Below are positions 9,232 to 12,180 of a DNA stretch of 64,000 nt, one piece after another; position 1 is the first letter of the stretch, and each line of letters opens with the position of its first letter. The stretch comes from a virus (Duplodnaviria > Caudoviricetes), in IMG/VR virus record IMGVR_UViG_3300013947_000022, positions 96,001 through 160,000 of that record; one strand, 5' to 3'. Both the position numbers and the translations under genes were made by a program. Below the pieces are notes generated by a model that saw nothing but the letters and a program-made list of their open reading frames with translations, did not search any database and was not told the DNA's origin.

Positions 9232-9360
9232 TCGACTCTAACAGCAATTTTTCATAATATTCTAACAAAAGAAGCAAACTATGGTTCGATTCCACAATCC
9301 TTTCCCTGAGAGGATTAGTCAAGTGGATAAGACGGCTTCATGAATTATTAATGAGTCGAG
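9232..9360 (+). ncRNA. Y-RNA-like ncRNA 1 with circularly permuted tRNA domain
   Basis: TCGACTC/GAGTCGA stem + ACAGCAA; inside GAAGC, T arm TGG-TTCGATT-CCA, closed acceptor ATCCTTTC/GAGAGGAT, D arm GTC-AAGTGGATAA-GAC, GCTTC. Confidence 0.8.
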
Positions 9361-9614
9361 AACAAAAACAAAAAAAGTTAAAAGCCTCTTGACAAATGAA
9401 AATCAAGATGGTATAATGAGCACATAAAGAAATAAAAAACTTGTTTTATTTAGCAAGAGTGATTCTTTTAGTTCCCTAAAACGTGGTATGCCAATCACAT
9501 TCAATCTTGCTATCTAAATAGGTAGAAGAACCTACTGCGTTTCTTGTTAGTACGCTCCTATTCTGAGCTGGAACACTTGAAAACCAGTAGAGTTCCTAAA
9601 CCGAAATTCCATTT

Positions 9615-9736
9615 GCGCCTGTAACTCAGTGGTAGAGTAGCGGCCTTGGATAATAGCGTTTAGGCTTTAGCAAGTGCGAGACTTGCATTATCCCTTAAGC
9701 CGTCTGTCATGGGTTCGAATCCCATCAGGCGCACCA
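9615..9736 (+). tRNA. tRNA-Lys(TTT, or CTT in an alternative register) interrupted in the anticodon loop by a mini-tRNA (9648-9694)
   Basis: GCGCCTG/CAGGCGC acceptor, GCGGC/GCCGT anticodon stem, TTCGAAT, ACCA; removing the insert gives loop CT-TTT-AA. Confidence 0.85.
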
Positions 9737-9762
9737 ATAGTAGTTTTGTAATTTTGGTCTAT

Positions 9763-9825
9763 TCGACACTCACAGTAATTTTTAACACATATAATTGGAT
9801 TTGTATTTGTAAAAATAGTGTCGAG
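9763..9825 (+). ncRNA. Y-RNA-like ncRNA 2 (short)
   Basis: TCGACAC/GTGTCGA stem, ACAGTAA variant. Confidence 0.65.
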
Positions 9826-9853
9826 TATAATTAACAAAGAAAGGACAACAACT

Positions 9854-10504
9854 ATGTTAAAGCCAGAAGAAAAAATCATTCTTGACCTTTGTGGCGGTAC
9901 TGGTTCATGGTCTCGTCCTTGGCAGTTAAATGGGTATGATGTTCGTATCATTACTCTTCCTGAATATGATGTAAGGACTTTTAATCCTCCTGAGAATGTT
10001 TGGGGCATTCTTGCTGCTCCACCTTGCACAGAATTTAGCAATCTAAACTGTATCGCTGAGAATCGTCATCGTGACTTTGATGCTGGTATGGAAATTGTTA
10101 ATGCGTGTTTGCGTATTATCAAAGAGTGTAATCCTGTTTGGTGGGCTTTGGAAAACCCTCGTGGACATTTGCGTGATTTCCTCGGAACTCCTACTATGAC
10201 TTTCCAGCCTTGGGAATATGGAGACCCTTGGACTAAGGCTACGGATATTTGGGGTACTTTTAATATTCCTCCAAAAAAGTATTCTCGTTGGGAAGATGTG
10301 CCTAATAAGATTCCTCTGTATACTCGCAAGGGTAGAAACAAGCCCAATTTTGCTTTTCTTCATAAGTCTGCTTGGAAGAATATTCCTCAACTTAGTTGGC
10401 ATCATCAACCTGAAACAGATGCGGAATTTAGAGCAATGACTCCTCCTGCATTTGCATGGGCATTCTATGAAGCTAATAAACTGAAAGTTTATGAGGGTAA
10501 TTAA
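9854..10504 (+). CDS. short C5-cytosine DNA methyltransferase-like protein
   Basis: LDLCGGTG, AAPPCTEFS, WALENP motifs. Confidence 0.8.
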   Translation: MLKPEEKIILDLCGGTGSWSRPWQLNGYDVRIITLPEYDVRTFNPPENVWGILAAPPCTEFSNLNCIAENRHRDFDAGMEIVNACLRIIKECNPVWWALENPRGHLRDFLGTPTMTFQPWEYGDPWTKATDIWGTFNIPPKKYSRWEDVPNKIPLYTRKGRNKPNFAFLHKSAWKNIPQLSWHHQPETDAEFRAMTPPAFAWAFYEANKLKVYEGN

Positions 10505-10753
10505 ATGACAACCGAAGAAAAGTTGCGAGAGTATGCTGATTATTATATCACTCTTTCTCCAATTAAAAAGGTGCGATTTTTAGAAAAGAATTTTAATCTT
10601 GGTAAGTTAAAATGGTATCAACGTATTTGTCTTACAATTGAGTTTGCGATTGGTGACTTGAAAGATAAGACAAAAAATATTTTCAAAAAAGTTTAAAAAA
10701 CACTTGACAAACAAAACAAAGTGTGCTATACTTAGTACACAATCAAGGAAGAC

Positions 10754-11320
10754 GAATGGTTGGTGAGTCTCAAAACAACCCAACTACCAAATGATAATAA
10801 GTGCGTGAGCTTAAATGCTAACGAACGTAATGAAGAAGCGACCTCGACCTCATATATCGTATATATATGTTGTAAATTACAAGAGTGAGTCAAGCAGTAA
10901 TTACAGGAGACATTTAAGTAAGGATTAATCGCAGTCCTGCTTGTTATCATTACCATAGTCTTGGTGATAGACTATCAAAACATCACTCCCCCAACTCCCG
11001 TCCGAAGTCTTGGAGTAGAACGCAAGCGATGGGCGTTCGAAGCAGAAAATGAAAGGGAAGAACACGATATATAGTGAGATAACCTATCGGGGTGCTAATG
11101 TGATAGGAAGTCTAAGTTCGGGAAAATCGTGAGTGGAAATTCCACGAGGTAAGCGTAGCGAACTTACCTAAACAGCTTCTTAATTACTACGGTAATTAAG
11201 CATAACTCATACTACGGTTAGACTGTATGAGAATCCTACTCAATGAGAAGCTGAGAGGATTAAGGTGACTAACCCTCCGAATGGTTGGTGAAGAGAAAGT
11301 TCAATCCAACTACCAGATTC
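10754..11320 (+). ncRNA. large pseudoknotted ncRNA (~570 nt), ROOL/GOLLD-class candidate
   Basis: No credible ORF; promoter at 10704/10727; about ten hairpins and several loop-to-strand pairings; within tRNA cluster. Confidence 0.65.
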
Positions 11321-11344
11321 TTTTACAAGGATTCATATACTCCT

Positions 11345-11475
11345 TCGACACTTACAGCAATTTTTACAAATGATATTTTTGAAATAACAATTGTAGAGTT
11401 CAATTCTCTATATAGCAACTCCTTACAGTCAGAGAGGAAACGCTATAGTCTGGTAGACCTGAAAAATGTGTCGAG
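11345..11475 (+). ncRNA. Y-RNA-like ncRNA 3 with permuted tRNA-like domain
   Basis: TCGACAC/GTGTCGA + ACAGCAA; T arm TAGAG-TTCAATT-CTCTA, acceptor TATAGC/GCTATA closed by a hairpin, D arm GTC-TGGTA-GAC. Confidence 0.78.
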
Positions 11476-11850
11476 TTTCTGACAATATGCCTTTTGTAGT
11501 ATAATGGCAGGAAAGTTTCTTCTCTCTTCCCTTAAAAGAGAAGTGGAGGGTGGGTGTCTTCGGATTCCCCTTACACGAATGGTTGGTGAGTGTTTAAATA
11601 ACCCAGCTACCATTAAATCCGTATGAGGTAACATAACAAGGGTTCTCATTAAAACTTGGAACTGTCCCGTCACCTTGTTTGTATAAGGGAATGAGTCAAG
11701 AGGTTATAGTTTACGGTCTATAACATTAAAGTTTAGCAATGAAAATGACCGAGATAATTGTGTGTAAGTCTGAAATAATGACTCTCCCCCAATCGAACCG
11801 AGGGCAGATATGTGTAAAGCTGGTCTGTCAGTAGTTGCTAAACTGAATAT

Positions 11851-12002
11851 GCAGGTATGGTGGAATTGGTAGACACAGCAGACTCCTTGGTATAGCATAA
11901 GTAATGCGCTCTTTTGAGAGATAAAAGTTCAAATCTTTTTATCAGGTCCAAAAATCTGCCGCTGAAATATGCGTGGGGGTTCGAGTCCCCCTACCTGTAC
12001 CA
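11851..12002 (+). tRNA. tRNA-Leu(CAA) interrupted by a 65-nt CCA-ending tRNA-like insert (11886-11950)
   Basis: Leu-type D loop GAATTGGTAGA, long variable arm, GCAGA/TCTGC stem, ACCA; excision gives CT-CAA-AA. Confidence 0.87.
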
Positions 12003-12042
12003 TATTTATTTAATAGTCAAAAATACGTTCATTTAAGAACGT

Positions 12043-12180
12043 TCGACACTAACAGCAACAAAGAAAGTTATAATACTTGCAAAGGGGCCTGTGTGTTAGG
12101 AGTTCAAGTCTCCTCGTCCGTCACAATATGACGGATGTAGCTCAACTGGCAGAGCAACAGAATGTATAAAATGTGTCGAG
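12043..12180 (+). ncRNA. Y-RNA-like ncRNA 4 with permuted tRNA domain
   Basis: TCGACAC/GTGTCGA + ACAGCAA; CTGT, T arm AGGAG-TTCAAGT-CTCCT, acceptor CGTCCGTCA/TGACGGATG, D arm GCTC-AACTGGCA-GAGC, ACAG. Confidence 0.83.

What the first reader, a model, noticed from the sequence alone, without database searches (positions are those of the whole stretch)
9232..12180. Three circularly permuted tRNA domains (T arm, closed acceptor, D arm) as Y-like RNA cargo
In 9232, 11345 and 12043 the 3' tRNA half precedes the 5' half and the acceptor stem is closed by a loop, while the conserved module replaces the anticodon loop. This is the YrlA topology. Copy 12043 is an almost perfect tRNA (TAGCTCAACTGGCAGAGCA, GTTCAAGTC). 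The three look derived from different tRNAs, implying repeated capture. Like the nested tRNAs, they are opened at the anticodon loop.
Basis: partly seen in the sequence, partly recalled or inferred. Interest (0 to 1): 0.82.

Follow-up and report, generated by a model that had tools for sequence, protein, structure and literature searches.

The report
Phage tRNA mimics on Ro-like handle
Three small RNA genes of a 215-kb gut phage are tRNA bodies in permuted order, mounted on a conserved RNA 'handle' that travels with a Ro60-like protein gene in hundreds of phages; this looks like an undescribed cousin of the Ro60-Y RNA particles.

Summary
Elements at 9232, 11345 and 12043 each run T arm, hairpin-closed acceptor, D arm, between the two strands of a 7-bp stem. 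After re-permutation ARAGORN calls 9232 and 12043 as tRNAs; 11345 is degenerate.

They are three of seven (plus two) copies of one 'handle': a covarying stem followed by CUNACAGCAA. An eighth copy lies in the 5' UTR of a DUF2828/DUF7788 gene (26002-27690) whose model matches only Ro60 structures over both domains (Z 9-14).

The handle lies within 1.5 kb upstream of this gene in 80 of 80 related viral loci, and in bacterial and one archaeal MAG down to 28% identity. A model built only from distant handles hits the window only at these modules.

Distant phages carry the same handle inside normally ordered tRNA genes, so the window copies are circular permutations of handle-bearing tRNAs.

This is YrlA topology but not YrlA: no GNCGAA motif, no TROVE hit, 28 bits against 69. 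The handle matches the Dictyostelium Class I RNA signature.

Binding is inferred, not shown. No Rfam 15 family matches the handle RNAs, and no paper I could search describes them. This scan had already met the family in at least 24 other genomes.

The parts
9165..9193 (+). Sigma-70-type promoter (TTGACA-17-TAATAT) about 40 nt upstream of M1
   Evidence: 10 of 12 matches; one of five near-consensus promoters in the RNA island
9232..9359 (+). M1: handle (P1 9232-9238 with 9353-9359; UAACAGCAA 9239-9247) carrying a permuted tRNA body (T arm 9280-9296, closed acceptor 9297-9315, D arm 9318-9333)
   Evidence: conserved in five related phages; 5' handle part hit by model R1 at 16.2 bits
11345..11474 (+). 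M3: handle with degenerate permuted tRNA-like cargo (T arm 11394-11410, irregular hairpin 11411-11447, mini D arm 11448-11458)
   Evidence: not called by ARAGORN after re-permutation; handle part hit by R1 at 18.5 bits and by Rfam Dicty_Class_I_RNA at 18.1 bits
12043..12179 (+). M4: handle with near-perfect permuted tRNA body (T arm 12098-12114, closed acceptor 12115-12137, D arm 12140-12155)
9763..9824 (+). M2: sibling handle without tRNA-like cargo (A/U-rich hairpin)
   Evidence: R1 33.8 bits, E 7e-6
14993..15057 (+). M5: sibling handle without tRNA-like cargo
   Evidence: R1 41.6 bits, E 8e-8
15449..15511 (+). M6: sibling handle whose cargo is an anticodon-stem-loop mimic (CUUAA-CUGUUAA-UUAAG, GUU)
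   Evidence: R1 50 bits, E 7e-10
15622..15713 (+). M7: sibling handle with 70-nt A/U-rich cargo
   Evidence: partial R1 hit at 15.2 bits
25954..25988 (+). Minimal eighth handle (CGACCG-ACU-CAGCAA...CGGUCG) between the promoter (TTGACA at 25914) and the Shine-Dalgarno sequence of the Ro60-like gene
   Evidence: the same position is occupied in relatives
26002..27690 (+). Gene for a 562-aa DUF2828 + DUF7788 (vWA with DxSxS MIDAS) protein of Ro60 fold; the inferred protein partner

Best explanation
The three elements are non-coding RNAs built from two modules.

Module one is a 'handle': a 7-bp stem that joins the RNA's two ends, followed on the 5' strand by single-stranded C-U-N-ACAGCAA-N-UUU. 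I infer that this handle is the binding site of the phage's Ro60-like DUF2828/DUF7788 protein.

Module two is a tRNA body (T arm, acceptor stem closed by a small loop, D arm) attached through its anticodon stem. It folds into the tRNA elbow but has no anticodon loop and no free CCA end, so it mimics a tRNA without decoding.

By analogy with Y RNAs, the handle holds the ring protein while the tRNA-like cargo recruits, or acts as a decoy for, proteins that recognise tRNA. In sibling RNAs the cargo is an anticodon-stem-loop, a T arm or nothing.

The copy in the protein's own 5' UTR, 13 nt upstream of the ribosome-binding site, suggests feedback control.

The permuted order arose from handle-bearing tRNA genes. 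In tandem copies, the stretch from one handle to the next is exactly T half, spacer, D half.

Shown: the anatomy, the covariation, the protein's fold, the genomic linkage and the family membership of the handles. Inferred: transcription as discrete RNAs, protein-RNA binding and the biological role. A counter-defence role is plausible because a Felixounavirus Ro60-like protein is reported to counter the Ppl system.
For: Anatomy:
- M1 and M4 are called as tRNAs after re-permutation.
- The YrlA core aligns to M4.
- The T stem and acceptor show compensatory changes against relatives.

Handle:
- There are 7 copies against 0.15 expected, all on the + strand. The variable stem position is U-A, A-U, C-G and G-C in different copies.

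Protein:
- Pfam finds DUF2828 (9e-31) and DUF7788 (3e-37).
- The 13 best Foldseek hits are all Ro60/Rsr (E about 1e-6).
- The 10 best VIA-align hits are Ro60/TROVE, Z 9.0-14.3, with 226-392 residues aligned across residues 60-558. Plain vWA domains score Z 8-9 over about 160 residues.

Linkage:
- All 80 viral loci have at least one handle within 1.5 kb upstream on the gene's strand, 275 hits against 8 on the other strand.
- 73 of 105 loci have a handle ending within 150 nt of the start codon.
- 73 of 149 distinct ACAGCAA sites have a perfect 7-bp partner, against 8 expected.
- The linkage persists in Clostridia, Erysipelotrichaceae and a Methanosarcinales MAG at 28-44% identity, and in coliphage wV8 and Mycobacterium phage Calm.

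Membership:
- Model R1, built from 54 distant handles, hits the 64-kb window six times, all at these modules.

Permutation:
- 10 of 15 long tRNA hits in relatives hold the handle inside a normally ordered tRNA.
- 55 such inserts give a tRNA when excised in silico.
- Closed-acceptor permuted forms recur in L043 and L087.

Literature:
- Bas63 gp130 is Ro60-like, lies beside tRNA genes and counters Ppl.
Against: - No expression or binding data exist.
- The three cargo-bearing copies match model R1 only in their 5' part or not at all: M1 16.2 bits, M3 18.5 bits, M4 no hit.
- In this phage the seven RNAs lie 10-17 kb from the gene, not beside it.
- One 28.7-kb viral record rated complete has a good handle (39 bits) but no DUF7788 gene (positive control).
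- The TROVE HMM does not hit the protein, so Ro60 kinship rests on a model of pLDDT 73 with TM-scores of 0.35-0.47.
- Bas63 gp130 worked against Ppl when expressed alone with T7, so at least that activity may not need the RNAs.
- Many loci are close relatives of each other, so the 80 of 80 is not 80 independent events.
Confidence: 0.65

Rival explanations
1. The handle is an intron-like splice signal, and the elements are split or permuted tRNA genes that mature into working tRNAs. The handle is cut out and the ends are sealed by the phage Rnl1-type ligase. For permuted copies the acceptor loop is then opened by RNase P and RNase Z, as for the permuted tRNA genes of Cyanidioschyzon.
For: - In distant phages the handle sits inside otherwise canonical tRNA genes (Asn GUU, Lys UUU, Ser, Thr, Tyr, Pro, Arg). 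Removing it restores a perfect 5-bp anticodon stem.
- The close relatives' M4 keeps A-CCA after the acceptor 3' strand.
- The genome encodes an Rnl1-like RNA ligase (PF09511, 45.6 bits).
- M. smegmatis YrlA is cut by RNase P and receives CCA (PMC4201824).
Against: - M1 and M4 have no anticodon loop: the anticodon stem runs straight into the handle.
- Acceptor loops are only 4-7 nt, and the window's M4 has lost CCA.
- Many handles carry only an anticodon-stem-loop, only a T arm or nothing, and one lies in an mRNA leader.
- The phage has no splicing endonuclease or RtcB.
- Some loci with a handle-bearing tRNA-Asn also have an intact tRNA-Asn.
Confidence: 0.15
2. The inverted repeats act at the DNA level, as terminal repeats of a small mobile cassette, a recombination site or a promoter element, and the RNA structure is incidental.
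For: - The elements are bounded by perfect 7-bp inverted repeats.
- They occur many times in intergenic DNA and inside tRNA genes, as a mobile insert would.
- Several copies hold a TATAAT box 8-17 nt after ACAGCAA (for example 14999-15027, 10 of 12 matches).
Against: - Strand bias is strict: 275 against 8 upstream of the gene, and 7 of 7 in the window.
- The conserved motif is on one arm only.
- The stem sequence varies while pairing is kept.
- The cargo is a tRNA fold with compensatory changes.
- The distance from ACAGCAA to TATAAT varies too much for a two-part promoter.
- There is no transposase or recombinase partner; the conserved neighbour is a protein of Ro60 (RNA-binding) fold.
Confidence: 0.05
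3. They are ordinary YrlA-type Y RNAs that bind a host Rsr (TROVE Ro60), not the phage protein.
For: The tRNA-like topology is the same, and Rfam YrlA is the best non-tRNA hit to M4.
Against: - M4 scores 28.1 bits against the gathering 69, and only model positions 23-87 align. M1 and M3 give no hit.
- The YrlA 5' motif ggCgaAUG (GNCGAAN0-1G) is absent from all handles.
- The handle tracks DUF2828 genes, not TROVE genes.
Confidence: 0.05

Closest known systems
YrlA Y RNAs with Ro60/Rsr (Rfam RF02553; Chen et al. 2014, PMC4201824; Thermus phage phiLo Ro60 with Yrl1/2, PMC12135203)
   Same: - A terminal stem holds the protein-binding site.
- The tRNA-like domain runs T arm, loop-closed acceptor, D arm and joins through the anticodon stem.
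- The partner is a ring protein built of an alpha-solenoid plus a vWA/MIDAS domain.
- The genes lie in phages next to tRNA genes.
   Different: - The protein belongs to Pfam DUF2828/DUF7788 and is not hit by the TROVE HMM.
- The handle is a stem plus CUNACAGCAA, not GNCGAAN0-1G.
- Rfam scores are far below the gathering score.
- Cargo is modular: elbow, anticodon-stem-loop, T arm, whole mini-tRNA or none.
- The same handle also occurs inside normally ordered tRNA genes.
Class I RNAs of Dictyostelia (Rfam RF01414; Kjellin et al. 2021, PMC7919456)
   Same: [quoted passage not shown]
- The motif (C)CUUACAGCAA follows the 5' strand directly; M3 and M6 read CUUACAGCAA exactly.
- The body is variable and about 60 nt, the size of the cargo-free modules.
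- Distant phage handles start AAG and end CUUG; Class I RNAs start AAG and end CUGU.
   Different: - Class I RNAs are eukaryotic, driven by the DUSE promoter, and their only named direct binder is the RRM protein Rnp1A.
- No tRNA-like cargo is described for them.
- The Rfam model reaches only 18.1 bits on M3 (gathering 41.5) and finds nothing on three handles of L045.
- Whether dictyostelids have a DUF2828 protein was not testable here.
Bas63 gp130 (Felixounavirus), an anti-Ppl counter-defence protein (PhageMaP preprint, 10.1101/2024.10.10.617714)
   Same: It is a Ro60-like phage protein encoded at the head of a tRNA array, and the authors guessed that some 'tRNA genes' there are Y RNAs. Felixounavirus homologues are about 31% identical to this window's protein, and wV8 has handles among its tRNAs.
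   Different: No RNA partner was identified in that work, and gp130 acted against Ppl without its RNAs. I did not align Bas63 gp130 itself with the window's protein.
Circularly permuted tRNA genes of Cyanidioschyzon merolae (from my own knowledge, not checked here)
   Same: The 3' half precedes the 5' half, and a short linker joins the acceptor strands.
   Different: Those genes mature into decoding tRNAs through a bulge-helix-bulge junction. M1 and M4 have no anticodon loop, and their junction is the conserved handle.

Membership tests
YrlA (Rfam RF02553) | tRNA-like domain in the order T arm, loop-closed acceptor, D arm | tested here: met
   ARAGORN calls the re-permuted M1 and M4; model positions 23-87 align to M4; M3 shows it only by eye.
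YrlA (Rfam RF02553) | Ro60-binding stem with GNCGAAN0-1G on the 5' strand | tested here: not met
   The handles read [A/U]UCGACNC here and AAGRCRC in relatives. The YrlA consensus ggCgaAUG does not align to M4.
YrlA (Rfam RF02553) | Score at or above Rfam's gathering score (69 bits) | tested here: not met
   M4 scores 28.1 bits. M1 and M3 give no hit at E up to 10.
YrlA (Rfam RF02553) | Encoded beside a TROVE-domain Ro60 gene | tested here: not met
   PF05731 has no hit in the 215-kb genome although the control genomes ring. A Ro60-fold DUF2828 gene lies 10-17 kb away.
YrlA (Rfam RF02553) | tRNA-type modifications (D, T/pseudouridine) and recognition by RNase P or the CCA-adding enzyme | not testable with these tools
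   This needs RNA from infected cells.
DUF2828-linked handle RNAs (unnamed; met before in this scan) | Terminal or hairpin stem of 6-8 covarying pairs followed by N2-3 and (A)CAGCAA | tested here: met
   Model R1, built from distant members, hits M6, M5 and M2 in full and M3, M1 and M7 in the 5' part.
DUF2828-linked handle RNAs (unnamed; met before in this scan) | Genomic linkage to a DUF2828/DUF7788 gene on the same strand | tested here: met
   The eighth copy lies in the gene's leader; 80 of 80 loci have a handle upstream. One exception is record G001.
DUF2828-linked handle RNAs (unnamed; met before in this scan) | Physical binding of the handle by the protein | not testable with these tools
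   No tool here predicts protein-RNA complexes, and no RNA data could be obtained.
Dictyostelium Class I RNA (Rfam RF01414) | Short stem joining the ends, with the 11-nt motif CCUUACAGCAA next to the 5' strand | tested here: met
   Window handles read C-U-N-ACAGCAA after a 7-bp stem. Published sequences read GTTGAC-CTTACAGCAA...GTCAAC-TG.
Dictyostelium Class I RNA (Rfam RF01414) | Score at or above the gathering score (41.5 bits) | tested here: not met
   M3 scores 18.1 bits; three distant handles give no hit.
Ro60 / TROVE proteins | Ring of helical repeats followed by a vWA domain with a MIDAS motif | tested here: met
   The model m2d01761187a1 gives its top 13 Foldseek and top 10 VIA-align hits to Ro60 over both domains. 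D345, S347 and S349 are invariant.
Ro60 / TROVE proteins | Match to the Pfam TROVE profile (PF05731) | tested here: not met
   No hit in the genome. Pfam assigns DUF2828 and DUF7788.
Permuted tRNA genes (Cyanidioschyzon type) | An anticodon arm is present, so that processing yields a decoding tRNA | tested here: not met
   M1 and M4 have an anticodon-stem equivalent but no 7-nt loop.

The most novel reading that the evidence does not exclude
The stem-plus-CNNACAGCAA handle is the cognate RNA ligand of the whole DUF2828/DUF7788 branch of Ro60-like proteins, in phages, archaeal viruses and eukaryotes. On this reading the orphan Class I RNAs of Dictyostelium are the Y RNAs of a eukaryotic DUF2828 protein, as are look-alikes such as the Arabidopsis candidate that Kjellin et al. 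set aside. Phages would graft the same handle onto tRNA bodies, permuted or not, to build ring-protein-tethered tRNA decoys used in counter-defence.
Probability: 0.3. Interest if true: 0.9.

Novelty: new variant of a known kind. Interest (0 to 1): 0.75.

Why it matters
Ro60-Y RNA particles are known from animals and from a minority of bacteria and phages, and their mechanism is only partly understood. This finding points to a second, larger branch.

- **Spread.** The protein family occurs in more than 700 sequenced phages, including Felix O1-type coliphages and cluster L mycobacteriophages, and its RNA partners have gone unannotated among tRNA genes.
- **Cargo.** The same handle is found on permuted tRNA elbows, on anticodon-stem-loops and inside ordinary tRNA genes. 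This suggests a modular way of tethering tRNA shapes to a ring protein. It would explain some 'odd' or pseudo-tRNA calls in phage annotations.
- **Counter-defence.** It offers a handle on how a reported anti-Ppl counter-defence protein may work.
- **Dictyostelium.** The match to the Class I RNA signature could give a 20-year-old orphan RNA class a testable protein partner.

Tried and rejected
- **Partner and enzyme searches in the phage genome.** TROVE, RtcB and the tRNA splicing endonuclease gave no hit.
- **blastn of 9000-16000 against GenBank phages.** This gave only a 76-nt tRNA-like match.
- **Rfam.** At gathering score on seven relatives' loci it found only tRNAs. At E up to 10 on three handles of L045 it found no Class I or other meaningful hit.
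- **ACAGCAA as a -35 box.** I rejected this because the distance to TATAAT varies from 8 to 17 nt.
- **High-GC pattern hits.** L003, L004, L010, L012 and L016-L020 are chance matches in coding DNA.
- **Single-sequence folds.** These gave only modest z-scores for the cargo-bearing copies (-2.0 to -2.7) and unstable folds for handle-bearing tRNAs.
- **G-U against A-C mismatch test for RNA-level selection.** The count was 15 against 8, which is not decisive.
- **First partner test.** With G-U pairs allowed over 250 nt it had too high a background. I replaced it with the strict 7-bp test.
- **Is a handle-bearing tRNA-Asn the only Asn tRNA?** The result was mixed and limited by 21-kb loci.
- **ESM Atlas.** It returned only the same family.
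- **Literature.** Avesson et al. 2011, which names the four Class I RNA-binding proteins, and Aspegren et al. 2004 are not held. The five papers mentioning DUF2828 are unrelated to RNA.
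Full report
**What is there**

The window is bases 96001-160000 of a 215-kb viral record rated 99% complete. Between 9.1 and 16.1 kb lies an island of non-coding RNA genes. It is driven by near-consensus sigma-70 promoters and includes several tRNA genes with inserts in the anticodon loop.

Seven elements in this island share one frame, all on the + strand:
- [A/U]UCGACNC
- then (U/A)NACAG(C/U)AA
- then a variable middle
- then GNGUCGAG

The pattern occurs 7 times against 0.15 expected. Each 7-nt left arm has its exact complement 60-137 nt downstream. The free position of the stem is U-A, A-U, C-G or G-C in different copies.

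**The permuted tRNA bodies**

M1 and M4 each contain, in this order:
- the 3' strand of an anticodon stem
- a 5-nt variable region
- a canonical T arm
- a 7-9-bp acceptor stem closed by a 5-nt loop
- U8-A9
- a D arm with the GG dinucleotide
- the 5' strand of the anticodon stem

When the D-side half is joined to the T-side half through any of three dummy loops, ARAGORN calls both as tRNAs. M3 is not called. M3 keeps a good T arm and a 3-bp D arm, but its 'acceptor' is an irregular 37-nt hairpin.

Rfam's YrlA model aligns its tRNA-like core to M4 at 28.1 bits. It finds nothing in M1 or M3.

Five related 150-220-kb phages hold the same elements in synteny. Between the window's M4 and theirs, four of five T-stem pairs and one acceptor pair differ on both sides yet stay paired. 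No credible ORF covers the elements, even when TAG is read as a sense codon.

**The partner protein**

It lies at 25954-25988, between a promoter and the ribosome-binding site of ORF 26002-27690.

- The 562-aa product matches Pfam DUF2828 and DUF7788 and has a DxSxS MIDAS motif.
- An AlphaFold model (pLDDT 73) gave Ro60/Rsr/TROVE structures as its 13 best Foldseek hits.
- They are also its 10 best VIA-align hits: Z 9.0-14.3, with 226-392 residues aligned across both domains. Plain vWA domains reach Z 8-9.
- The TROVE profile itself finds nothing in the genome.

**Comparative test**

- Homologues of the protein were fetched from 80 viral loci at 42-90% identity. Every locus has at least one stem-plus-CAGCAA module within 1.5 kb upstream on the gene's strand: 275 hits against 8 on the opposite strand.
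- In 73 of 105 loci a module ends within 150 nt of the start codon.
- Of 149 distinct ACAGCAA sites there, 73 have a perfect 7-bp partner, against 8 for shuffled 7-mers.
- The stem sequence differs between lineages (AAGACAC, AAGGCAC, GAGACGC, GGGGCGC and others) while pairing is kept.
- The linkage persists in gut Clostridia and Erysipelotrichaceae assemblies and in a Methanosarcinales MAG at 28-44% identity.
- It also holds in coliphage wV8 and Mycobacterium phage Calm, whose gene is annotated 'Ro-like RNA binding protein'.
- A covariance model built from 54 distant handles, none from this phage group, hits the 64-kb window six times only, all at these modules. M6 scores 50 bits, M5 41.6 and M2 33.8. 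M3, M1 and M7 are hit in the handle part.

**Where the permutation comes from**

In the distant phages the same handle also sits inside normally ordered tRNA genes:

acceptor, D arm, C27-G28, then a hairpin stem, N2-3, CAGCAA-NUUU, then the rest of the anticodon arm, T arm, acceptor.

Ten of 15 over-long Rfam tRNA hits in seven loci are of this kind. Excising the insert in silico yields an ARAGORN tRNA in 55 distinct cases, most often Asn(GUU).

A second tRNA type has a GUCAAGUGGUAAGAC D arm, the type of M1's body. It carries the handle in place of the anticodon loop.

Both arrangements give the same three-dimensional object. They differ only in whether the chain is open at the acceptor or at the handle.

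Closed-acceptor permuted forms recur in L043 and L087. The close relatives' M4 still reads acceptor-A-CCA-AUAU-acceptor, as expected if the unit arose from tandem handle-bearing tRNA genes. Other cargos are anticodon-stem-loop mimics (as in window M6), lone T arms, whole mini-tRNAs or nothing.

**Comparison with what is known**

- **YrlA.** The topology and the kind of partner are those of YrlA with Ro60 (PMC4201824). The defining 5' motif is absent (GNCGAAN0-1G; model consensus ggCgaAUG), scores lie below the gathering score, and the protein belongs to a different Pfam family. Even the Calm element reaches only 39.8 bits.
- **Dictyostelium Class I RNAs.** The handle matches their signature: a short covarying terminal stem followed directly by CCUUACAGCAA. 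The Rfam score is weak, at 18 bits.
- **PhageMaP preprint.** It reports that a Felixounavirus Ro60-like protein counters the Ppl defence, and guesses at Y RNAs among the neighbouring tRNA genes.
- **Novelty.** No Rfam 15 family matches the handle, and I found no paper describing it. This scan had met the family in at least 24 other genomes.

**Reading and limits**

The best reading is a Y-RNA-like particle: the handle binds the ring protein and the cargo mimics tRNA. Binding, discrete transcripts and function are all inferred.

The main rival is that the handle is an intron-like signal and the elements mature into tRNAs. It fits the interrupted tRNA genes of relatives and the phage's Rnl1-type ligase. 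It does not fit M1 and M4, which have no anticodon loop, nor the cargo-free and leader copies.

One complete 28.7-kb phage has a handle but no such protein. This remains unexplained.

Noticed in passing
window 10740-11330 (also 11560-11615): A roughly 600-nt non-coding stretch lies behind a consensus promoter at 10704. The hairpin motif GAAUGGUUGGUGA...CCAACUACCA recurs three times (about 10757, 11281 and 11579). Rfam finds nothing at E up to 10.
   Followed up: no
L044:9417-9680, L091:9100-9900, L083:9370-9880, L066:5825-6094: In distant phages the CAGCAA handle is inserted in normally ordered tRNA genes, between nt 28 and 29 or in the anticodon loop. It occurs side by side with tRNA-shaped inserts like those of this window. 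Whether these inserts are spliced out is open.
   Followed up: partly
own genome G000:C1:196547-196707 (outside the window): A ninth handle (UCGUCGC-UA-ACAGCAA...GCGACGA) carries about 140 nt of cargo with no tRNA features.
   Followed up: no
L001:3361-3429 (record G001, 28,676 bp, rated 100% complete): A small phage carries a good handle (39 bits with model R1) behind a terminator but has no DUF7788 gene in its whole record. This is an exception to the linkage.
   Followed up: partly
window 9785-9795, 12070-12078, 15018-15027: Several handles hold a TATAAT box 8-17 nt after ACAGCAA (M2, M4, M5; also the relatives' M7 and L001), more often than A/T richness alone would suggest. Internal promoters are possible but untested.
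   Followed up: no
own genome G000:C1:78405-79034: An Rnl1-type RNA ligase gene (PF09511, 45.6 bits) is present. The genome has no RtcB and no splicing endonuclease.
   Followed up: partly
window 14522-14800: A 92-aa ORF with Cys and His motifs typical of HNH endonucleases ends inside the 5' end of the insert-bearing tRNA gene at 14780. I read this by eye and did not test it.
   Followed up: no
PMC7919456, supplementary file 56: Kjellin et al. list an Arabidopsis candidate (ath_can_1, score 40) and a Capsaspora candidate. Both have a perfect stem plus (A/C)UUACAGCAA, and the authors set them aside. Papers that mention DUF2828 concern plants.
   Followed up: no
L130:3924-4174 (Mycobacterium phage Calm): Three unannotated handles directly follow the 'Ro-like RNA binding protein' gene. 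The middle one carries a T arm, a closed acceptor and a D arm, and scores 39.8 bits with YrlA.
   Followed up: partly
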